Virus record (IMG/VR): IMGVR_UViG_3300031414_000005
Length of the DNA stretch: 64,000 nucleotides
From: a virus
Lineage: Duplodnaviria; Caudoviricetes
Reading direction: 5' to 3' (one strand)
The notes below the pieces were generated by a model. That model was not told where the DNA came from and searched no databases. It saw only the letters and a program-made list of their open reading frames with translations. The position numbers and the translations under genes were made by a program. Of the stretch, positions 12,703 through 27,190 are shown in pieces (the stretch's first letter is position 1; each line of letters opens with the position of its first letter).

Positions 12703-12776
12703 ATAACGATGCAGTGCACTGTGTCATTTATACTTTGAGCTCAAGTAGTTTAACTTTTTATTTAAGGATTGTTCTA

Positions 12777-14756
12777 ATGCGTACACCTGAAGAAAACACC
12801 AACCAGTCTTCTAGCAACGATCTGGCTAACCAGCTGGACAACGCTCTCAACAACGATCGTCAGCAGTCTACCGCACGTCCTGCGGCAGATGAGTCTGAAG
12901 CCCGCCCAACGATCAGCCGTGCACGTCATCGTCGTGTGTCAGTTGATGAAGGCGGCGACAGCTTCCGCAGTAAACTGGCCGCGATCAACGAGCACATCAA
13001 AGCAGACCCTGCTGCTGATGGCTTCGGTCAGTCCTGGGACCTGGTACCAATCCTGGCCAGCCAGAACAGCCTGAACTTCGACGGCGCAGCGTACGTTGTT
13101 CTGTTCGATAACGTGAGCAATGGTCGCACCGATCAGATGGCGTATTTCTACACCATGATGTTCGAAGATGCCGGTGCCCTGCTGCAACCCCGCAGCGAGC
13201 GCAACCAGCTGACTGGCGAAGCCATGCAGATCCCGGTCATGGCAGGCAGCCAGTACGACGCGATCTACATCCGCGCCGTGATCAAAACGATTGCACGTAA
13301 GTTCAATCTGCCAGAGAAAAACGTGCGTAACGCCGGCGGCATGGCTGTCCCAAGCTTTACGCAGATGACCTCACTGGCCATCCGTGACCTGCTGCTGAAT
13401 GCCGATAACGCCGTCAGCGCACGTGCAAACATCGACTCTGGCTACCAGATGGAAGATGCGATCGGCATGGCGGACATCGGTCCTAAAGACCAGACGTTCC
13501 TGCGCTTTGACTTCAACCAGTCTCAGACCCTTCAGTTCGACAACGTACCAAACCGTACCGACGTGCAGGTGACACTCAGCAAACGTTCAGGCAGCCAGGG
13601 TCAGACCAGCCGCGATGAAACCATGCTGAAAGTCAACGCGATGCTGATCGCTCAGTATAACGAACCGAACAAACAGCCGCAGTATAACGAGTACAACCAG
13701 CCGGTCATGCCGTCTACTCAGGTTTACTCACCACTGCTGGTCATCACCGGTTCCGAATCTGGCCGTGCGCTGAACCACGTCGAAAGTCTGGAACAGCGTC
13801 TGCTGGCAATCGCCACTGCGATGTACCTGAACCGTAATGCGAACTGGATCAACATCCTGACGCCGAAGAAAGGTAAAGAAGATCTCACCGACATCGGTGC
13901 CTTCAATATCGACTTCGTTCGCAACATGAAAGGTCATCCGGCGTTCGCGCAGGCTGAGCAAGCTGGTAAGTTCAACCCGGAGAAAGTGGATACCCACGGT
14001 CCATCATTCGGCCAGGCTGAAGTGTTCCAGTACATCAGCAAGATGTTCTTCCCGAACCTGACCATCGCAATGGACGTGCTGCAAGGCGGTGAGAAATCCT
14101 GGATCGATAACCTGATCCTGCTGGCAAGCATGGCGCCAAACGCAACCATCGACATCACTGATGAAGATAACCCAGTTGCGCGTGCCAACCGCCAGATCAT
14201 CAGTTCCATGAACCTGACCTCTAAAGGCAAGTTCAAAGAGCTGCTGGAAGAAGGTTTCGGTAAGTTCCGTCTGGGTCAGCCGCTGGTCATCAACGACGGC
14301 ATCCTGTACCCTGCGGGTTACTACAACTTTGCCGATGAGCGTCGTGACATCCGTGACTTCAGCCTGCTGGAGATCCTGAACGTCGCCGGTAACGAGCAGT
14401 ACGAATGGGTTGAGCGCTGGAAACGTGCTACCTCTCCGAACTGGAATTATGACAATAACTTCCGTATCGTTGAGATGCTGACCATCCTGACCAAATTCGC
14501 ACCGGGCTTCAAACACACCGGTTACTACAGCCGTCCGATCATCAACCCGAATCTGCTGGCAACCTACATGGCCGCTCTGGCGCGTGCAGGCCTGGCACCG
14601 GGTCTGGGTAACTTCACCAGCACCTTCAACGAAAACAGCTATGGTCAGTCTACTGCGGCTCAGTTCTCTCTGGGTGCAGATATTTCTTACGGCCAGCAGC
14701 AGGGCTCTCCAGCCCAGGGCAACCAGCAGACCAGCAACTGGTTCTTCAGCAACTAA
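12777..14756 (+). CDS. chmA: Chimallin, major phage nuclear-shell protein
   Basis: 659 aa from ATG 12777 (AAGGA RBS). Motifs AMDV..GGEKSW and GYY....RRDIRD match chimallin. Disordered N- and C-terminal segments. Directly upstream of the nvRNAP beta'-N gene. Confidence 0.9.
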   Translation: MRTPEENTNQSSSNDLANQLDNALNNDRQQSTARPAADESEARPTISRARHRRVSVDEGGDSFRSKLAAINEHIKADPAADGFGQSWDLVPILASQNSLNFDGAAYVVLFDNVSNGRTDQMAYFYTMMFEDAGALLQPRSERNQLTGEAMQIPVMAGSQYDAIYIRAVIKTIARKFNLPEKNVRNAGGMAVPSFTQMTSLAIRDLLLNADNAVSARANIDSGYQMEDAIGMADIGPKDQTFLRFDFNQSQTLQFDNVPNRTDVQVTLSKRSGSQGQTSRDETMLKVNAMLIAQYNEPNKQPQYNEYNQPVMPSTQVYSPLLVITGSESGRALNHVESLEQRLLAIATAMYLNRNANWINILTPKKGKEDLTDIGAFNIDFVRNMKGHPAFAQAEQAGKFNPEKVDTHGPSFGQAEVFQYISKMFFPNLTIAMDVLQGGEKSWIDNLILLASMAPNATIDITDEDNPVARANRQIISSMNLTSKGKFKELLEEGFGKFRLGQPLVINDGILYPAGYYNFADERRDIRDFSLLEILNVAGNEQYEWVERWKRATSPNWNYDNNFRIVEMLTILTKFAPGFKHTGYYSRPIINPNLLATYMAALARAGLAPGLGNFTSTFNENSYGQSTAAQFSLGADISYGQQQGSPAQGNQQTSNWFFSN

Positions 14757-14784
14757 GTAGTTCGTCTGGCAGCCAACTGAAAAC

Positions 14785-21294: not shown

Positions 21295-21359
21295 TTTCTG
21301 ACATAACTGCTTTATTGTTTGTAGCGTACTAAGTTTATTCTAATGGAGTGATAACCCCA

Positions 21360-22121
21360 ATGAGCGATTTTAAAGGTAAGAACCAGAACGCCCGTCCGCG
21401 TACGCCGATGAGCGATTACCGCAACCAGCTCGCCGGCCCGATTCAAAACGGTGCGACCTTACCGTCCAACTTTTTCATGACCCTCAACGGTTCTAACCAG
21501 ATTGCGATCTGTGTGAACACCAACGTAAAAGAAGATGAGAACTACGGTCGCTTCGATATCGTTATGCCGTTGAGCGCTGCTTATCAGGTATTGGCTACCC
21601 TGCGTTACCTGATGGAAAACCCAACCCAAACCAAACTGGGTTATGCCGTGAAAGATTACGGTTTCATCCGTGAAGGCGGCAAAGGTAAACGTACCGATCA
21701 GCCGATTGTGAAAGGCCGGGTGATTTGTGGTCGTGATGACAACGGCCAGCTGTACATCGGTCTGGCACTGAAAAACAAACAGAACATCAAGTTCGGTTTT
21801 GTGATGGCCAACTTCAACGAAGTGGTCGGTGCTGACGGTCAGGCCATGGGTCTGGATATCCAGTCTCATATCGCGTGCTCTGCTTTCGTGGTTCAATACG
21901 AACACATGCTTCCTCATATCCTGAACAAGTTCTGGAAAGAAGAAGAGAAGAAAGAAGGCAACACTGGCGGTGGTAACGGCGGTGGCTACAACAACAACCG
22001 CGGTGGTAACAATGGCGGCGGTGGCGGTTATAACAATAACCGTGGTGGCAACTCGGGTGGCGGTAATGGCGGCGGCAAGCCGAGCAATGATTTCGACGAC
22101 GATCTGCCGGACGATTTCTAA
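21360..22121 (+). CDS. chmC: ChmC-like nucleus-associated RNA-binding protein (phiKZ gp67-like)
   Basis: Beta-rich domain plus a Gly/Asn-rich disordered tail; immediately upstream of the sigma-like nvRNAP subunit and PicA. Confidence 0.7.
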   Translation: MSDFKGKNQNARPRTPMSDYRNQLAGPIQNGATLPSNFFMTLNGSNQIAICVNTNVKEDENYGRFDIVMPLSAAYQVLATLRYLMENPTQTKLGYAVKDYGFIREGGKGKRTDQPIVKGRVICGRDDNGQLYIGLALKNKQNIKFGFVMANFNEVVGADGQAMGLDIQSHIACSAFVVQYEHMLPHILNKFWKEEEKKEGNTGGGNGGGYNNNRGGNNGGGGGYNNNRGGNSGGGNGGGKPSNDFDDDLPDDF

Positions 22122-22169: not shown

Positions 22170-22193
22170 AAAAATATACGGACCTATATTACC
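22170..22193 (+). promoter_or_regulatory. Candidate early promoter motif A
   Basis: AAAAATATACGGACCTATATTACC; contains the phiKZ-type early TATTAC element. Confidence 0.65.
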
Positions 22194-22233
22194 TACGTGT
22201 TATGCAATAGTTAATGTCATCGTGGAGATTAAG

Positions 22234-23766
22234 ATGCAACTTGAATATACCTTGAGCGGCCGTAATGCGCTCGATAAATTCATCGCGGTTAGCGATAATG
22301 GCGAGCGTGTCGAGTTCGAGGTGGGTAATTTTCATAAGACCAAGCCACTGGACTATGAAGGCACGTTTGATGAGATCAACCTTTACCTGCGCGTGATCCC
22401 ACAGCAGGACAAAAATAAGCTCTTCCATTTCTTTAAACAAGGTAACGACATTCTGAACCAGTCTTTACCTAACCCAAAGTACCTGCTCCCAAAACTGTTA
22501 CCTCTGGTGACCCAGATGTATCAGGTGTTTGACCTGGAGCGGTTTTCAATGTTTAACCGTAATAAACGAATTATTGAAATTCCCCCGAACCTGTCGGGTG
22601 AAGAAGACGCCTATTATCCGGCGGCCACGACGTATAACGACACCGAGTATTATCACTTGGTGGAATTTGCGATCGCGGTACATCTGATCTCGCCGATTGT
22701 GGGTGAGTTCATTAAAAAGGTACGCCAAGTCACCGGTACCGATTTCAAAGAGCTGGCAGCCTATCCGCTGTTTGCGAACACCCCACTGGCGACCATGATG
22801 GGTTGGCAGAAACTGAACCACTACACCAAAGCTCAGGCGGCCCGTCAGCCGGAGTCGATTGGTCCGGCCTTAGAAGGGTTAGGTCCATCGGGGTACATTC
22901 AGTATCTGGTTGCACAAACCGTGGTACGGCGTCTGTGTATCAACAAAACGCAGTACGGCCCGGATCAGAAAAAGAACCTGGTCAGTGTGGTCTACGGTAC
23001 GGTGAACCGCAACAGCAGTAGCAGCAGTGTTGGCGGGATTGTCAGGAAGAAGTCAGATTACACCCACCGCGGTGATGACGACAAAGACCGGGCATTCACC
23101 GAAACGTACAAAATGAAACAGGAGGTTCTGGAGTCCGCAATCATCGGCAGTGAAGAGTTCTTCCTGTTCGACTTGTTTGACATCAACGGGGAGCAACGGC
23201 CTACTCCGTTTGAGATCTCTGCCCGTACCGTGCACCCGGATCTGGATCCTGCACTGGTGCGTAAATGTTTCTATGCGATTCCGGAAGGCTGGACGTATGA
23301 CCTGATGACCCATGCGCTCATCATCATGCAGGTGGCCAACGGCACCCGTCTGTCACCGGAAGCGATCATCAATTTCAGTTACATTGGTTTAATGAGTGTG
23401 GTTGCCCATACTCAGGCTGATCTGATTCGTCGTGGTTATGAATACCTGCCGGCGTTGGTGAGTTCGATCATCGACACCGAAGGGGACGTCACCGACTATG
23501 ACGATGAAATGCAGTTGTTCAGTGATGAGAAAAAGTTGCTCGCCGAGCGCTATCACGTCACGTTACCGCCGCATGATCGTGCCAACAACATCGGGATCCG
23601 GAGCATGGAAATGTTCTTGGACTCTGTGAAGAAGCACCCGTTAGTATCCACATTACCTTCACCGTTTACCGCGGGTACTCACGTATCCAACGGCGACCTC
23701 ATTTCAGTTGAGATAAACGGTGCTGTCAAAAAAGAAATGTTAGCCTTAGTCTTGGGAGTTAAATAA
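22234..23766 (+). CDS. Non-virion RNAP promoter-specificity (sigma-like) subunit, phiKZ gp68-like
   Basis: 510 aa from ATG 22234 (GGAG RBS; the track start is read-through of the ChmC region). Size and position fit gp68. Confidence 0.7.
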   Translation: MQLEYTLSGRNALDKFIAVSDNGERVEFEVGNFHKTKPLDYEGTFDEINLYLRVIPQQDKNKLFHFFKQGNDILNQSLPNPKYLLPKLLPLVTQMYQVFDLERFSMFNRNKRIIEIPPNLSGEEDAYYPAATTYNDTEYYHLVEFAIAVHLISPIVGEFIKKVRQVTGTDFKELAAYPLFANTPLATMMGWQKLNHYTKAQAARQPESIGPALEGLGPSGYIQYLVAQTVVRRLCINKTQYGPDQKKNLVSVVYGTVNRNSSSSSVGGIVRKKSDYTHRGDDDKDRAFTETYKMKQEVLESAIIGSEEFFLFDLFDINGEQRPTPFEISARTVHPDLDPALVRKCFYAIPEGWTYDLMTHALIIMQVANGTRLSPEAIINFSYIGLMSVVAHTQADLIRRGYEYLPALVSSIIDTEGDVTDYDDEMQLFSDEKKLLAERYHVTLPPHDRANNIGIRSMEMFLDSVKKHPLVSTLPSPFTAGTHVSNGDLISVEINGAVKKEMLALVLGVK

Positions 23767-23767
23767 A

Positions 23768-25192
23768 ATGTTGAAGCCTATCCTCGAAAAAATGAATTTC
23801 GCCCGCACCCCACGCTATCATGAAATGCACCGTCGTCCTTGGGCTGCGTACCGTGATGGCCAGGTGATGGATTGGATTGGTAGTGCGACAAACAACATGA
23901 GTTCTTTGCCTGACGAAGGCGGGTTAAGTCAGTTGGCCGCCAACATGATTCGTCCGTCGGCGCAGAGTGAGGGTGCTGCGATGATTGACAACGGCTGGGA
24001 TCAGGACCGTGCCGTCTGGATGGCGAAAGTGGTTCTGATGCAAACGCAGAACTCCCGTACAGTGAAATACCTGAGCGGTTACACCAACCACTTTGGTTTC
24101 AAGGGTACACCAACCCGCTGGAACAGCGACCCGGAAATGCGTCTGTATGTGAACAAGGTCTTTACGTTCCAGGAACGCATGATCATGATCAACGGCGTGC
24201 CAAGCAAACAGCTGATCATGCTGGACAACAACCAGGTGTTGGTTGGTCGTCACGGTCGTGTGGATAATCCCCGCAATGACATGACGATTCGTCCGTCTGA
24301 CATCTATTCCCAGATGCACAACAACTATCTGGCGTCACAGGCCAGCCAGTTTGGCAGCGGGGGTCAGATCAATCTGGATACCCGTATCGCATTCGGTGAT
24401 TCCATTAAACTCAGCAATACCCACAACACGTCACAGACCGGTTACCTGGCCCGTCTGTTGGGTGCGGGCATCGCGTCTAACCAGAGCATCGATACCGGGG
24501 CGGGTGGTTATGACGTCAATGTGCTGCGTACTGGCGAGCATGTGCACGAACGTCTGGTCAGTCAGGACCCGGTGCTGAACAACTTCAAGATGCAATCTGA
24601 CTTCATGAATGACGGCTTCGTCACCATGCGTGAGATGAGCGAGATGTTCAGCAATATGCATCAGGTTATGGCGACACCGTCAGGTCTGGATAAGCAGGCT
24701 ATTAACCTGGCGCTGAACAACCCAGGCTTTGGTGGTGCGGGTAACGAACTGATTCAGGCATTGACCATCCACGGTATTGTTTCTGAACTGATGATGGACA
24801 ATATGTTGACGACGATGACGTTTACGGCGTCTAATCAGACGCAGAATGGTCAGATGAAGTTCGAGGTGCCGTTGATGAAGAGCTTCATCGATGGTCGCAA
24901 CCCACGTGAAGATGCTGAGACGTTCCGTCGCCGACTGGAAACCCTGTACTTCCTGCCACTGCGTACCCCGTATGGTCTGAAGCCTGTGACCTTCAGTATG
25001 AACACCGGCTTGACTTCTTCTACTGAGATTCGTATCTCGCTCGATGGCGGACCGGTGCATACGTATCACTTCCCGACGTTTGCTGACTCGTCCTTTACGC
25101 CGGTTATGACCAGCGACCAGAAAGCCGTGCAAGGTGTTGCAAGCACCATCAGTGACGTACTGTCTAATTTTAACCGTAACTTAGTGCATTAA
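23768..25192 (+). CDS. picA: PicA/Imp1 protein-import factor (phiKZ gp69-like)
   Basis: 474 aa directly after the gp68-like gene; I..GW...R..W and P.F.DS..TP motifs; mainly synteny. Confidence 0.68.
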   Translation: MLKPILEKMNFARTPRYHEMHRRPWAAYRDGQVMDWIGSATNNMSSLPDEGGLSQLAANMIRPSAQSEGAAMIDNGWDQDRAVWMAKVVLMQTQNSRTVKYLSGYTNHFGFKGTPTRWNSDPEMRLYVNKVFTFQERMIMINGVPSKQLIMLDNNQVLVGRHGRVDNPRNDMTIRPSDIYSQMHNNYLASQASQFGSGGQINLDTRIAFGDSIKLSNTHNTSQTGYLARLLGAGIASNQSIDTGAGGYDVNVLRTGEHVHERLVSQDPVLNNFKMQSDFMNDGFVTMREMSEMFSNMHQVMATPSGLDKQAINLALNNPGFGGAGNELIQALTIHGIVSELMMDNMLTTMTFTASNQTQNGQMKFEVPLMKSFIDGRNPREDAETFRRRLETLYFLPLRTPYGLKPVTFSMNTGLTSSTEIRISLDGGPVHTYHFPTFADSSFTPVMTSDQKAVQGVASTISDVLSNFNRNLVH

Positions 25193-25204: not shown

Positions 25205-26761
25205 ATGAAACTGGTTGATCAATATATCAGCATCCTGGAATCTCTGGGTGGGACTGTCGCCGAAGACGGTCGTGTTACCCTCAATACCGCCGGGACTGAG
25301 ATCCCGGTACTGGTGCGCAACGCCGGTGACCGTGCGTTGTATGTTCCTACTCGCACACAGCTGGACAACCCGGACTGGGAGCACCGTGCTTACTTCCATC
25401 CGCTGGCCGAGTCTTATGTGGGGGGTGAATCTGAAATCATTCAAACCCTGCGTGAACTGATCCTGGTGCGTATCACTGAGCAGGTTTATCTGCACGGTGA
25501 AAACCTGCTGCTGTTGGCGATTGATGATAAACGTCAGGCGAAACTCAAAGACAACCAACTGGATGTCATGAAACGCCTGGCGGAAACCGATGAAACCACC
25601 ATCAGTCATTTCCGTTCCATTATCTCTGCATCCACCATTAACTATGAAGGCGGTGAAGATCGTCGTCTGGTGGCGATGTACCTGAAACGTGGCGGTAACT
25701 ATAAAGGTCGCGGTGTGACTCGTCTGTGCACCACGTTCTTCCCGGTGTATGACCAGCTGCGCAAACTCGAAGGCCGTAAAGCCAAAGACTGTAAAGTCTT
25801 CGGCGTGGACCTGCGTCTGAAGGATGTGAAAATCCTGACAGCGCTGTTCGAAATCCTGTTCCCGAACATCGAAGACGACAACGAGTTTTACTCGGACGGT
25901 ACGGAGTCGCGCACCGCGCCATACTTCACCTGTCTGATGAACTCGTTCCTGAAAATCGCTGGGGCGTTGAACCAGAACGCGATGCTGTTCTCCCGTGCCT
26001 GTAAAGAGCTGGAGAAAATCCAGATCAAATGGGGTGAACACATGGACAGCCTGACCAAGTTCAATGGCGAGATCCCTTCCCTGCCTTATAACCTCGGCAC
26101 TGATGATGAGGTCAATGCAGTGAAAGATGATACCCCACCGTGGGATACCAAAGCACAAACGCAACATGTTGCACCGACCAGTCAGCCGGTCAGCAAAGAG
26201 AAACCCAGCAACCTGATGAGCAGTATTCGCAGCCACTTCCTGTCAACGGGAAATGACGTGAACACCGCACCGCGTCCGGTTAACGTACCGCAACACACCG
26301 ACGGGGGTAATGTCACAGTGGGTGGTTGGGGTGCGCCAGCAGTGCCACAACAACAGGCACCGCAGCAGCAATCCTCCGGGGGTTGGTGGCAGTCAAATGC
26401 ACCGGCGCAGGCAGCACCGCAGCAACAACCCGCAAACAACGGTTGGGGCACACCTCCGCAGCAAGCGAATACCACCCAGCGTGTGATTCAGCAGAATGGC
26501 GTGGAAGTGTTACTGACTATTGATGCAAACGGTACTGTGATTGGTAGCCAGCAGTTAGGTCAGAGTGCAGCTGCGGCAGCACCGGCTAATAACGGCTGGG
26601 GTACACCACCACCACAGAACAACGGTTGGAATGCGGCACCTGCTCAAGCAGCACCACAGCAAAGCACCGGCGGTTGGGGTACAGCAGCCAGTAATGGTTG
26701 GGGTGCGCCTGCGCAAAACAACAATGGTTGGGGTGGTAATTCATCTGGCGGTTGGGTGTAG
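25205..26761 (+). CDS. Conserved nucleus-block protein (phiKZ gp70-like) with a GW-repeat disordered C-terminus
   Basis: Folded N-terminal ~300 aa (FHPLAES...GES; AP.F..L); Q/N/G/A/P-rich tail with 9 GW motifs. Confidence 0.7.
   Translation: MKLVDQYISILESLGGTVAEDGRVTLNTAGTEIPVLVRNAGDRALYVPTRTQLDNPDWEHRAYFHPLAESYVGGESEIIQTLRELILVRITEQVYLHGENLLLLAIDDKRQAKLKDNQLDVMKRLAETDETTISHFRSIISASTINYEGGEDRRLVAMYLKRGGNYKGRGVTRLCTTFFPVYDQLRKLEGRKAKDCKVFGVDLRLKDVKILTALFEILFPNIEDDNEFYSDGTESRTAPYFTCLMNSFLKIAGALNQNAMLFSRACKELEKIQIKWGEHMDSLTKFNGEIPSLPYNLGTDDEVNAVKDDTPPWDTKAQTQHVAPTSQPVSKEKPSNLMSSIRSHFLSTGNDVNTAPRPVNVPQHTDGGNVTVGGWGAPAVPQQQAPQQQSSGGWWQSNAPAQAAPQQQPANNGWGTPPQQANTTQRVIQQNGVEVLLTIDANGTVIGSQQLGQSAAAAAPANNGWGTPPPQNNGWNAAPAQAAPQQSTGGWGTAASNGWGAPAQNNNGWGGNSSGGWV
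26323..26758 (+). repeat. Degenerate coding repeats (NNGWG/GGWG)
   Basis: Nine GW motifs separated by Q/A/P-rich spacers. Confidence 0.9.
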
Positions 26762-26771
26762 TCACTTAAAT

Positions 26772-26793
26772 GGGGAGAGCTTGCGCTCTCCCC
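26772..26793. terminator. Bidirectional terminator
   Basis: GGGGAGAGC-TTGC-GCTCTCCCC flanked by AAA and TTT, between convergent genes. Confidence 0.8.
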
Positions 26794-26816: not shown

Positions 26817-27152
26817 TTACTGTTTGCGTAATTGATACAATTCCTTAATTTCGGACAGATCGTCATCTTTTATAATGAGGATCGATTTTCCGGGCTTCAC
26901 TTCCTCGAAAGGATTTGTCACCTCATTAATGCGGGTAATGATCCAATGCAAATCAGGGCTGATGGCCATGGCTTGCAACACCCGATAGAAATTGTAGCGG
27001 TTCGCGTTGGCCTCTTGCAATGGAGGGACTTGCTCAAGTTGGGCCTTGGCTTTCAGCAGATCCAGATGTTCACGCAACACCTCACGAAAGGTGGCATCAA
27101 ACATCAGGGGATCGCCGACCGGTGGTTTACTGGTGCTCAGAATAATGCTCAT
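26817..27152 (-). CDS. Small protein resembling T4 gp53/LysM-like baseplate proteins
   Basis: DLHWIITRINEVTNPF..VKPG..I resembles the gp53/tail-X pattern; AAGGGA RBS 8 nt upstream of ATG 27152. Confidence 0.5.
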   Translation of the reverse strand: MSIILSTSKPPVGDPLMFDATFREVLREHLDLLKAKAQLEQVPPLQEANANRYNFYRVLQAMAISPDLHWIITRINEVTNPFEEVKPGKSILIIKDDDLSEIKELYQLRKQ

Positions 27153-27166
27153 CGAACGCATCCCTT

Positions 27167-27190
27167 AAAAGTATAAAGACCTATATCATC
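27167..27190 (+). promoter_or_regulatory. Candidate early promoter motif A
   Basis: AAAAGTATAAAGACCTATATCATC upstream of the nvRNAP beta gene. Confidence 0.6.

What the first reader, a model, noticed from the sequence alone, without database searches (positions are those of the whole stretch)
26323..26761. Nucleoporin-like GW-repeat disordered tail on the gene adjacent to the nuclear importer PicA
Seen: the last ~145 aa of the gp70-like protein are Q/N/G/A/P-rich with nine GW motifs (mostly NNGWG/GGWG), nearly uncharged, and interrupted by one short beta-rich insert (VEVLLTIDANGTVIG). Known: aromatic-sticker/polar-spacer repeats drive FG-nucleoporin permeability barriers and condensates. The gene follows the sigma-like subunit and PicA in one operon. 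Inference: the tail may form a selective gel at the shell or import site, or a transcription/export condensate with ChmC. This would be convergence on eukaryotic nuclear-pore logic.
Basis: partly seen in the sequence, partly recalled or inferred. Interest (0 to 1): 0.72.

Follow-up and report, generated by a model that had tools for sequence, protein, structure and literature searches.

The report
Trp-Gly sticky tail, phage-nucleus protein
The last 146 residues of a conserved jumbo-phage protein, whose relatives sit on the phage "nucleus", form a real, nearly charge-free, floppy tail with nine evenly spaced Gly-Trp "stickers". Nearly all relatives carry such a tail but with other sticky residues, so it more likely holds a hub together at the shell than copies a nuclear pore.

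Summary
ORF 25205-26761 (518 aa) is the orthologue of phiKZ gp70 / PhiPA3 gp64. It is the last gene of a gp68-like / PicA / gp70-like unit.

Residues 373-518 hold 9 GW motifs (0 of 100,000 shuffles reach this) and only 3 charged residues. AlphaFold2 predicts the tail as disordered, except for a confident three-stranded beta insert at 423-450.

The tail is not a local oddity. Of 155 representative homologues, 153 carry an uncharged Q/N/P/G-rich tail of 110-232 aa behind a well-folded N-domain with no known fold. The sticky residue differs between lineages (Tyr 64, Met 46, Phe 26, Trp 17) and flips about 67 times on the tree. Within this Trp lineage, 9 of 10 tail Trp are conserved against 55% of the other tail columns.

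Published work puts the PhiPA3 orthologue on the nuclear shell. phiKZ gp70 did not co-purify with Imp1/PicA, and the gene is almost free of transposon insertions.

Measured against published Nup98 FG-domain features, the tail matches only in charge depletion and roughly in motif spacing. Its length, FG/GLFG content and Trp avoidance do not match.

Best reading: a cohesive sticker-spacer tail that builds a multivalent hub at the phage nucleus. An NPC-like selective gel is possible but unsupported. This scan found the same family's tails earlier on other DNA.

The parts
25205..26761 (+). gp70-like gene (518 aa, P0001), orthologue of phiKZ gp70 / PhiPA3 gp64, phrog_3520
   Evidence: AAGGG Shine-Dalgarno-like element 9 nt upstream of the ATG
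25205..26098 (+). Folded N-terminal domain (aa 1-298), alpha/beta, with no known fold or Pfam family; conserved in 1578 homologue clusters
   Evidence: AF2 pLDDT 89.7, pTM 0.85; no PDB match by sequence or fold; only jumbo-phage proteins match in BFVD
26099..26320 (+). Disordered linker (aa 299-372) holding a short amphipathic helix at aa 336-347 (nt 26210-26245). The helix sits where most relatives have a conserved short motif (consensus GGGLDWNSVMRANPQL).
   Evidence: helix, pLDDT 52-59; motif found in 75 of 155 relatives at E<0.01, not detected in this protein
26321..26464 (+). Low-complexity segment 1 (aa 373-420): three GW motifs (one is GGWW), Q/A/P-rich, no charged residue
   Evidence: pLDDT <50
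26465..26560 (+). Lineage-specific insert (aa 421-452) predicted as a three-stranded beta element
   Evidence: pLDDT 82-89, strands 424-430, 433-439, 445-450; core conserved in the 71%-identical relative P0003; similar hairpins in only 5 of 155 tails
26561..26758 (+). Low-complexity segment 2 (aa 453-518): six GW motifs about every 11 residues, ending in GGWV
26772..26793 (.). GC-rich 9-bp hairpin directly after the stop codon. It lies between this gene and the convergent 114-aa gene (26817-27161, minus strand) and is a likely terminator for both.
   Evidence: dG -23.8 kcal/mol, z -4.08, 0 of 200 shuffles fold as well
23768..25192 (+). PicA/Imp1 orthologue (474 aa), no low-complexity tail in this phage
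   Evidence: BLASTP to phiKZ gp69 2e-36; phrog_3141; translation
22231..23766 (+). gp68-like non-virion RNA polymerase subunit
   Evidence: BLASTP to phiKZ gp68 3e-14; phrog_3209
22181..22193 (+). Promoter-like motif GACCTATATTACC ahead of the three-gene unit
   Evidence: 3 exact copies of GACCKATATYAYC in the window against 0.01 expected
21348..22121 (+). ChmC/Imp6 orthologue with an N/G/Y/R-rich tail and an acidic tip; it lies upstream of the promoter motif
   Evidence: BLASTP to phiKZ gp67 6e-8; phrog_3284

Best explanation
The gene encodes this phage's member of the gp70/gp64 family, a near-essential, early, shell-associated protein of nucleus-forming phages. A folded N-domain of unknown fold carries the specific function. 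The C-terminal 146 residues are a disordered, charge-free sticker-spacer domain. In it, evenly spaced Trp residues held on flexible Gly/Asn act as stickers, and the Q/A/P/N stretches act as spacers. I infer that the tail makes many weak, cohesive contacts, with itself and with other polar low-complexity tails at the shell (the N/G-rich ChmC tail, the Q/G/S/Y tail of ChmA). This would concentrate the protein in a multivalent hub or small condensate at the nuclear periphery, where transcription, mRNA hand-off and import take place. The chemistry of the sticker is free to drift (Trp here; Tyr, Met or Phe elsewhere), which fits a physical rather than a lock-and-key role. Shown here: the sequence features, predicted disorder, family-wide retention of the tail, and sticker conservation within the lineage. 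Shown in the literature for orthologues: shell localisation, near-essentiality, and condensate formation by the ChmC tail. Inferred: cohesion, the partners and the hub function.
For: GW enrichment and charge depletion. Tail disorder with pLDDT <50. 153 of 155 representative homologues keep a tail of 110-232 aa, on average 66% Q/N/P/G/A/S/T, with about 10% aromatic residues in the last 100 aa. The dominant sticker is Y in 64, M in 46, F in 26 and W in 17; it changes about 67 times on the N-domain tree, and Trp dominance needs at least 11 origins. Within the lineage, 9 of 10 tail Trp are conserved against 59 of 107 other low-complexity columns. In the 98%-identical relative, 7 of 10 substitutions fall in the tail and none hits a Trp. 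Trp spacing is more even than chance. PhiPA3 gp64 localises to the shell, appears in the ChmB pulldown and is expressed early (PMC10643120). PHIKZ070 has 1 transposon site after trimming and 5 untrimmed in 1302 bp (PMC9 supplement of PMC12676376). The ChmC N/G-rich tail forms condensates with RNA (PMC11077065). Engineered YG and Leu-only repeats still form cohesive selective phases, so the sticker identity can be exchanged in principle (PMC9918544).
Against: There is no direct evidence that any gp70-family tail self-associates or phase-separates. The tail is short (114 aa of low complexity) with only 10 stickers. No other protein in this genome shares the GW motif, and PicA here has no tail, so any hetero-typic partner is undefined. 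phiKZ gp70 is listed as a nuclear (interior) protein and did not bind Imp1 in E. coli. Two of 155 relatives differ: one has a highly charged R/D/E tail and one is truncated. The orthologue in L002 also has a charged tail. An uncharged cohesive tail is therefore not strictly required.
Confidence: 0.45

Rival explanations
1. Pocket-binding tether. The tail is an entropic leash whose Gly-flanked Trp residues, and the hydrophobic C-terminal residue, each insert into hydrophobic pockets of a folded partner such as the ChmA lattice, the nvRNAP or the protein's own N-domain. This would work like the GW182 W-motifs on Argonaute/CNOT9, or like FG motifs on transport receptors. The result is avid but reversible docking, not a condensate.
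For: Every Trp sits in the same G/N-G-W context. The family's last residue is hydrophobic in 115 of 155 proteins (I 53, V 23, L 19, F 12, W 5, Y 3). A conserved short motif or helix precedes the tail. The beta insert is predicted with confidence, and extra beta bridges appear at N-domain residues 148 and 151 only in the full-length model, hinting at intramolecular docking.
Against: The sticker residue flips freely between W, Y, F and M among relatives whose N-domains are conserved. That is hard to reconcile with shaped pockets unless the partner co-varies. No partner has been identified.
Confidence: 0.2
2. NPC-like selective phase. Tails of many gp70 copies fill a gap or pore in the ChmA lattice, or coat the import site. 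They form a cohesive gel that excludes inert proteins but admits cargo licensed by PicA, or mRNPs carried by ChmC.
For: Charge depletion is extreme (2 acidic and 1 basic residue in 146 aa) and aromatic-Gly motif spacing is 1 per 11-16 residues. Orthologues localise to the shell. The gene lies in the PicA unit. One relative, P0004, carries LFGQPQQQ repeats including a GLFG. FG identity is not strictly needed for selective phases (PMC9918544).
Against: The tail fails the length, FG density, GLFG prevalence and Trp-avoidance criteria of Nup98 domains. None of 153 family tails reaches 1 FG per 12 residues, and the longest tail is 232 aa. phiKZ gp70 did not co-purify with Imp1. No pore has been described in the shell. 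An earlier check within this scan (e1-220103) also found that pore-like composition is not the rule in the family.
Confidence: 0.1
3. SSB-linker-like nucleic-acid hub. The tail copies the composition of the bacterial SSB intrinsically disordered linker. It lets the protein co-assemble with host SSB or with the SSB-like tail of ChmC on single-stranded nucleic acid inside or at the nucleus.
For: The composition cosine between the GW tail and the E. coli SSB linker (aa 113-168, which contains GGWGQPQQPQGGNQF) is 0.88, the highest of the comparisons made. The ChmC orthologues end in an SSB-tip-like motif. One of them (L002) has a GGWG/PQQ-type linker.
Against: The gp70 tail lacks the acidic DFDDDIPF tip. 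No OB fold turned up for the N-domain (which does not settle it). Trp density is five-fold higher than in SSB. Most relatives have Tyr- or Met-rich tails unlike SSB linkers.
Confidence: 0.1
4. Functionless low-complexity drift. The tail is a tolerated, compositionally biased appendix or simple spacer with no sequence-dependent role.
For: The tail evolves several-fold faster than the N-domain. The sticker type is close to random on the tree: 67 changes against a shuffled mean of 75. In phiKZ, 4 of the 5 transposon insertion sites fall in the trimmed gene ends. Which end they hit is unknown.
Against: The tail is retained in 153 of 155 representatives across very deep divergence, with a narrow range of length and composition. 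Trp is conserved 9 of 10 within the lineage despite being the rarest residue. Trp has a fixed G/N-G context and even spacing.
Confidence: 0.1
5. Argonaute-hook mimic. The GW repeats bind a host prokaryotic Argonaute as a decoy, as some plant-virus suppressors do.
For: There are multiple GW motifs in a disordered region.
Against: Orthologues replace Trp by Tyr, Met or Phe. The protein is a core, near-essential replication-cycle gene rather than an accessory anti-defence gene. No Argonaute link was examined.
Confidence: 0.02

Closest known systems
PhiPA3 gp64 / phiKZ gp70 (PHIKZ070, NP_803636.1) family, phrog_3520
   Same: Homologous N-domain (27% identity, E 2e-30 to phiKZ gp70; phrog_3520 at 1.3e-79). 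Same gene order ChmC - gp68 - PicA - gp70 - nvRNAP beta. Same architecture: folded N-domain, linker, then an uncharged low-complexity tail.
   Different: The phiKZ tail is Met/Gln-rich with no Trp. This one uses only Trp as sticker and carries an extra, confidently predicted beta insert that splits the tail. The usual mid-tail motif was not detected here.
Cohesive FG domains of Nup98/Nup100/Nup116 (GLFG type)
   Same: Disordered and almost free of charge, with N/Q/G/A/P/S/T spacers and an aromatic-Gly motif roughly every 11-16 residues. Attached to a folded anchor domain. Orthologues sit at a compartment boundary.
   Different: 146 aa against 500-700. No FG or GLFG. Rich in Trp, which Nup98 domains avoid. 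No known transport receptors (criteria from PMC9918544). Not homologous.
ChmC (PhiPA3 gp61 / phiKZ gp67 / Imp6) N/G-rich C-terminal region
   Same: A phage-nucleus-associated protein encoded two genes upstream, with a disordered polar tail. For ChmC the tail was shown to drive condensates with RNA (PMC11077065).
   Different: The ChmC tail is N/G/Y/R-rich, ends in an acidic tip, and follows a Whirly RNA-binding fold. The gp70-like tail is Q/A/P/N/G plus Trp, has no acidic tip and follows an unknown fold. The composition cosine is only 0.58.
E. coli SSB intrinsically disordered linker (aa 113-168)
   Same: G/Q/P/A-rich and uncharged, and contains GGWGQPQQ. Composition cosine 0.88.
   Different: SSB has one Trp in its linker and ends in DFDDDIPF after an OB fold. 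The gp70-like tail has 10 Trp, no acidic tip and a different N-domain.
GW182/TNRC6 W-motif regions (Argonaute and CCR4-NOT hooks)
   Same: Repeated Gly-flanked Trp in a polar disordered region (the description of GW182 rests on established knowledge, not on a test here).
   Different: Trp is not conserved across the phage family. No Argonaute context. Bacterial-virus setting.

Membership tests
phiKZ gp70 / PhiPA3 gp64 family (phrog_3520) | Sequence homology of the ~300-aa N-domain | tested here: met
   phrog_3520 at E 1.3e-79; BLASTP to phiKZ gp70 2e-30; 1578 homologue clusters found; 206 phage records by tblastn
phiKZ gp70 / PhiPA3 gp64 family (phrog_3520) | Conserved position after the gp68-like subunit and PicA and before the nvRNAP beta genes | tested here: met
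phiKZ gp70 / PhiPA3 gp64 family (phrog_3520) | Long, mostly uncharged low-complexity C-terminal tail | tested here: met
   153 of 155 representatives carry one; this protein has a 220-aa post-domain region, 146 aa of it GW-rich
phiKZ gp70 / PhiPA3 gp64 family (phrog_3520) | Localisation to the phage nuclear shell during infection | not testable with these tools
   Shown for PhiPA3 gp64-GFP only (PMC10643120)
Nup98-type cohesive FG domain (features listed in PMC9918544) | Overall length about 500-700 residues | tested here: not met
   146 aa, of which 114 aa are low complexity; the longest family tail is 232 aa
Nup98-type cohesive FG domain (features listed in PMC9918544) | Extreme depletion of charged, especially acidic, residues | tested here: met
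   3 charged residues in 146
Nup98-type cohesive FG domain (features listed in PMC9918544) | Selection against Trp, Tyr, His, Cys, Val and Ile | tested here: not met
   10 Trp; these six residues make up 12.5% of the last 120 aa
Nup98-type cohesive FG domain (features listed in PMC9918544) | [quoted passage not shown] | tested here: not met
   No FG and no GLFG. GW occurs once per ~16 residues overall and once per ~11 in segment 2.
Nup98-type cohesive FG domain (features listed in PMC9918544) | Forms a selective phase that admits transport receptors | not testable with these tools
   Needs purified protein
SSB-type tail (disordered linker plus acidic tip) | G/Q/P-rich uncharged linker | tested here: met
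   Composition cosine 0.88 to E. coli SSB aa 113-168
SSB-type tail (disordered linker plus acidic tip) | Acidic C-terminal tip (DFDDDIPF type) | tested here: not met
   The protein ends in SSGGWV
SSB-type tail (disordered linker plus acidic tip) | OB-fold DNA-binding domain | tested here: inconclusive
   No OB-fold chain among the best structural matches (best Z 6.1, to a designed helical protein). A missing match does not exclude the fold.
GW182-type Argonaute hook | Several GW/WG motifs in a disordered region | tested here: met
GW182-type Argonaute hook | Trp is the conserved, indispensable residue across orthologues, binding Argonaute pockets | tested here: not met
   Trp dominates only 17 of 153 tails, and the sticker type flips about 67 times on the tree. 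Binding itself was not tested.

The most novel reading that the evidence does not exclude
The tails of the gp70 family, here in a Trp-Gly form, assemble into a small cohesive phase at discrete sites of the chimallin shell. PicA-licensed proteins and/or ChmC-bound mRNAs would pass through it. That would be a minimal, independently evolved counterpart of the nuclear-pore permeability barrier, with interchangeable stickers (W, Y, F, M).
Probability: 0.08. Interest if true: 0.9.

Novelty: new member of a known kind. Interest (0 to 1): 0.5.

Why it matters
How proteins and mRNA cross the closed chimallin lattice is the main open question for nucleus-forming phages. The gp70/gp64 family is core, early, shell-associated and almost intolerant of transposon insertions, yet it has no assigned function. 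In the papers I could search, its tail is not discussed.

Three findings here make a clean experiment possible. Nearly every member keeps an uncharged sticker-spacer tail. The sticker chemistry is interchangeable between lineages. Within a lineage the stickers are the best-conserved tail residues. The experiment is to delete the tail, mutate the stickers, and swap tails between lineages.

This Trp-only version, split by a small folded insert, is a useful natural variant. Trp is a strong sticker and an intrinsic fluorophore. If the tail proves cohesive, it would join ChmC as a second condensate-type component at the phage nucleus. If it proves selective, the parallel with nuclear pores would be real. 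As it stands, that parallel is only compositional and partial.

Tried and rejected
- Megablast of the gene against the phage collection found nothing.
- The first word-indexed homologue search was swamped by low-complexity words and gave 5 hits. The exhaustive HMMER search with aa 1-340 solved this.
- Pfam gave no family for this protein or its four neighbours.
- A PDB profile search gave no hit.
- Foldseek against the PDB gave nothing at E<=0.001.
- The VIA-align wide search gave a best Z of 6.1, to a designed helical protein, which is within noise for helical models.
- The ESM Atlas search with the tail gave no usable feature hit, and structural rows had TM<0.3.
- A homodimer prediction of the N-domain returned 'no answer' (score 0.00). 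This is not evidence for or against oligomerisation.
- The tandem-repeat finder found no DNA repeat in the tail.
- The consensus terminator scan missed the hairpin after the stop codon because the T-run is not adjacent. Folding showed the hairpin.
- The viral-contig scan for close relatives returned only one distant locus.
- The word-indexed search for ChmC relatives returned only two near-identical proteins. Conservation of the SSB-like tip therefore rests on three phages only.
- I did not test across genomes the idea that gp70 and PicA tails always share a dialect within one phage (earlier scan notes). It does not hold in this genome: PicA has no tail, and no other ORF is GW-rich.
- The Listeria-type GW cell-wall module was rejected: no Pfam hit, and the region is disordered.
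Full report
OBSERVATION. The finding lies in the 3' third of ORF 25205-26761 (+ strand, 518 aa). Nucleotides 26323-26761 encode aa 373-518.

In these 146 residues I count nine GW motifs, at aa 374, 393, 413, 464, 474, 490, 498, 508 and 516. Five are NGW and four are GGW. There are ten Trp in all, and only three charged residues. No composition-preserving shuffle out of 100,000 reaches nine GW.

Trp makes up 6.8% of the tail. It makes up 0.8% of the rest of the protein and 1.26% of the phage's long ORFs. Every Trp has G or N at position -2, and nine have G at -1. Their spacing is more even than chance: the coefficient of variation is 0.49 against 0.82 in shuffles, and 3.7% of shuffles are as even. 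There is no tandem repeat at the DNA level. The ORF is the only GW-rich one in the whole 232,948-bp genome.

IDENTITY AND CONTEXT. The window comes from a complete virus record with direct terminal repeats. The four collinear genes match phiKZ genes by direct BLASTP:
- 21348-22121 matches gp67 (ChmC/Imp6), E 6e-8.
- 22231-23766 matches gp68 (nvRNAP subunit), E 3e-14.
- 23768-25192 matches gp69 (PicA/Imp1), E 2e-36.
- 25205-26761 matches gp70, E 2e-30.

PHROG assignments agree and Pfam has nothing.

A promoter-like motif recurs three times in the window against 0.01 expected. One copy sits at 22181, just ahead of the gp68-like gene, and another at 27178, ahead of the nvRNAP beta gene. Gene spacing inside the unit is 1 and 12 nt. 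A 9-bp GC hairpin (dG -23.8 kcal/mol, z -4.08) follows the stop codon.

The transcription unit is therefore gp68-like / PicA / gp70-like. ChmC lies upstream of the motif, and a small convergent gene (26817-27161) lies beyond the hairpin.

ARCHITECTURE. With a 64-sequence alignment, AlphaFold2 folds aa 1-300 with high confidence (mean pLDDT 89.7, pTM 0.85). This alpha/beta domain has no detectable relative in the PDB, by profile search, by Foldseek or by the exhaustive aligner (best Z 6.1, within noise). In BFVD it matches only uncharacterised jumbo-phage proteins.

The full-length model shows:
- a disordered linker;
- a weak helix at aa 336-347;
- disorder at aa 348-420;
- a three-stranded beta element at aa 424-450, with pLDDT 82-89;
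- disorder again from aa 453 to the end.

Extra beta bridges at N-domain residues 148 and 151 appear only in the full-length model (compare). The insert may therefore dock back on the N-domain. I could not inspect contacts, so this is only a hint.

THE TAIL IS A FAMILY TRAIT; THE TRP IS NOT. An exhaustive HMMER search with aa 1-340 finds 1578 homologue clusters. Among the best 155 proteins, 153 have a post-domain region of 110-232 aa. On average it is 66% Q/N/P/G/A/S/T and about 10% charged. The last 100 residues average about 10 aromatic residues and 7 charged ones.

The dominant sticky residue in the last 100 aa is Tyr in 64, Met in 46, Phe in 26 and Trp in 17. On a tree of the N-domains this label changes about 67 times, against a shuffled mean of 75. 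Trp dominance needs at least 11 origins. The nearest lineages outside this one are Met-rich, as is phiKZ gp70 itself.

Exceptions exist: one truncated protein and one with an R/D/E-rich tail, plus another charged tail in locus L002.

Many relatives (75 of 155 at E<0.01) have a short conserved motif about 70 residues into the tail. The family's last residue is hydrophobic in 115 of 155.

Within the Trp lineage the stickers are the constrained part. Against a relative whose N-domain is 84% identical, 9 of 10 tail Trp are conserved against 59 of 107 other low-complexity columns, and whole GW units are gained or lost as indels. Against a 98%-identical relative, 7 of the 10 substitutions lie in the tail and none touches a Trp.

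COMPARISON WITH KNOWN SYSTEMS. Ng et al. (PMC9918544) list four conserved features of Nup98 FG domains:
1. A length of 500-700 residues.
2. Extreme depletion of charge, and also of Tyr, His, Cys, Trp, Val and Ile.
3. [quoted passage not shown]
4. Prevalence of GLFG.

This tail meets only the charge criterion and comes near the spacing criterion. It fails on length, FG/GLFG and Trp avoidance. Across 153 family tails, none reaches one FG per 12 residues. Two reach half that density, one contains a GLFG, and the longest is 232 aa. So the tail is not a nucleoporin-type domain in the defined sense.

The same paper shows that YG and Leu-only repeats can still form cohesive, selective phases. 'Works like' therefore stays open.

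By composition the closest thing I could verify is the E. coli SSB disordered linker (cosine 0.88; it contains GGWGQPQQ). The gp70-like tail lacks the SSB acidic tip, however. GW182-type hooks share the Gly-flanked Trp, but the family-wide loss of Trp argues against a Trp-specific receptor.

WHAT THE LITERATURE ADDS.
- PhiPA3 gp64 is the orthologue; Goslar YP_009820858.1 is listed as a homologue. It localises to the nuclear shell as a GFP fusion, is expressed early, was recovered with ChmB, and has no known homology (PMC10643120).
- phiKZ gp70 is listed among nuclear proteins. It did not co-purify with Imp1 in E. coli, whereas gp67/Imp6 did (bioRxiv 10.1101/2024.03.27.586873).
- In phiKZ transposon sequencing, PHIKZ070 has one insertion site after end-trimming and five without trimming in 1302 bp. 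Its neighbours gp68, gp69 and gp71 have none after trimming (PMC12676376 supplements).
- ChmC's N/G-rich tail drives condensates with RNA (PMC11077065).
- I found no paper that discusses the gp70 tail. That covers this library only.

MECHANISM. I commit to a cohesive sticker-spacer tail that builds a multivalent hub at the phage nucleus periphery (confidence 0.45).
- Shown here: composition, disorder, retention of the tail, and sticker conservation.
- Shown in the literature, for orthologues only: localisation and near-essentiality.
- Inferred: cohesion and the partners.

The rivals are:
- a pocket-binding tether (0.2);
- an SSB-linker-like nucleic-acid hub (0.1);
- neutral drift (0.1);
- an Argonaute decoy (0.02).

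DEAD ENDS. The homodimer prediction gave no answer. The Atlas search gave nothing usable. Close relatives are scarce in the collections that I was allowed to see.

EARLIER SCAN NOTES. This scan found the same family's tails before on other DNA, in FG-, Met- and Gly/Leu-rich versions.
- I verified the orthologue names and the shell localisation they cite.
- I verified independently that pore-like composition is not the rule in the family.
- Their claim that PicA and gp70 tails always match within a phage does not hold here. PicA has no tail, and no other ORF is GW-rich.

VERDICT. This is a real, non-random feature. It is a Trp-flavoured member of a family-wide class of low-complexity tails on a known but uncharacterised shell-associated protein. 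The nucleoporin analogy is partial and compositional. The finding is mainly valuable as a sharply testable lead.

Noticed in passing
window 21348-22121 (C-terminal ~15 codons, about 22077-22118); L002:1915-2694; L003:12160-12900: The ChmC/Imp6 orthologue ends in DFDDDLPDDF, which closely resembles the E. coli SSB C-terminal protein-docking tip DFDDDIPF. A distant chimallivirus ChmC-like protein ends in DFDSDIPF after a GGWG/PQQ-type linker, and phiKZ gp67 ends in AFDEDMPSF. The ChmC paper describes an S/D/E-rich end but does not mention SSB. This may be mimicry of the SSB tip to recruit host SSB-binding enzymes.
   Followed up: partly
window 26465-26560 (aa 421-452): The hydrophobic insert that splits the GW tail is predicted as a three-stranded beta element at pLDDT 82-89, although only three sequences cover it. 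Beta bridges at N-domain residues 148 and 151 appear only in the full-length model, so the insert may dock back on the N-domain. Comparable hairpins occur in only 5 of 155 tails.
   Followed up: partly
family proteins P0006-P0155 (tails); window aa 336-347 = 26210-26245: A short conserved motif (consensus GGGLDWNSVMRANPQL) lies about 50-100 residues after the N-domain in 75 of 155 relatives. This phage has a weakly predicted amphipathic helix at the equivalent place instead.
   Followed up: partly
family proteins (C-termini), window 26750-26758: The very last residue of the family is hydrophobic in 115 of 155 proteins, often after Gly-Gly or Arg (..GGI..GRI; here ..GGWV). This suggests a C-terminal docking tip.
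   Followed up: no
L002:5965-7323 and protein P0021: A minority of gp70 orthologues carry a highly charged Arg/Asp/Glu-rich tail instead of the uncharged one. In L002, the ChmC-like neighbour is the protein that carries the GW/Q-type linker.
   Followed up: no
window 12714-14757 (chmA), last ~50 codons: The chimallin C-terminal tail is itself Q/G/S/N-rich, with two SYGQ motifs, and ends in NWFFSN. Its composition cosine to the GW tail is 0.84.
   Followed up: no
window 17123, 22181, 27178: Three exact copies of GACCKATATYAYC, all on the + strand and ahead of gene blocks, against 0.01 expected by chance.
   Followed up: partly
window 26817-27161 (minus strand): A small 114-aa gene (phrog_3455, unknown function) converges on the gp70-like gene and shares the hairpin at 26772-26793.
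   Followed up: no
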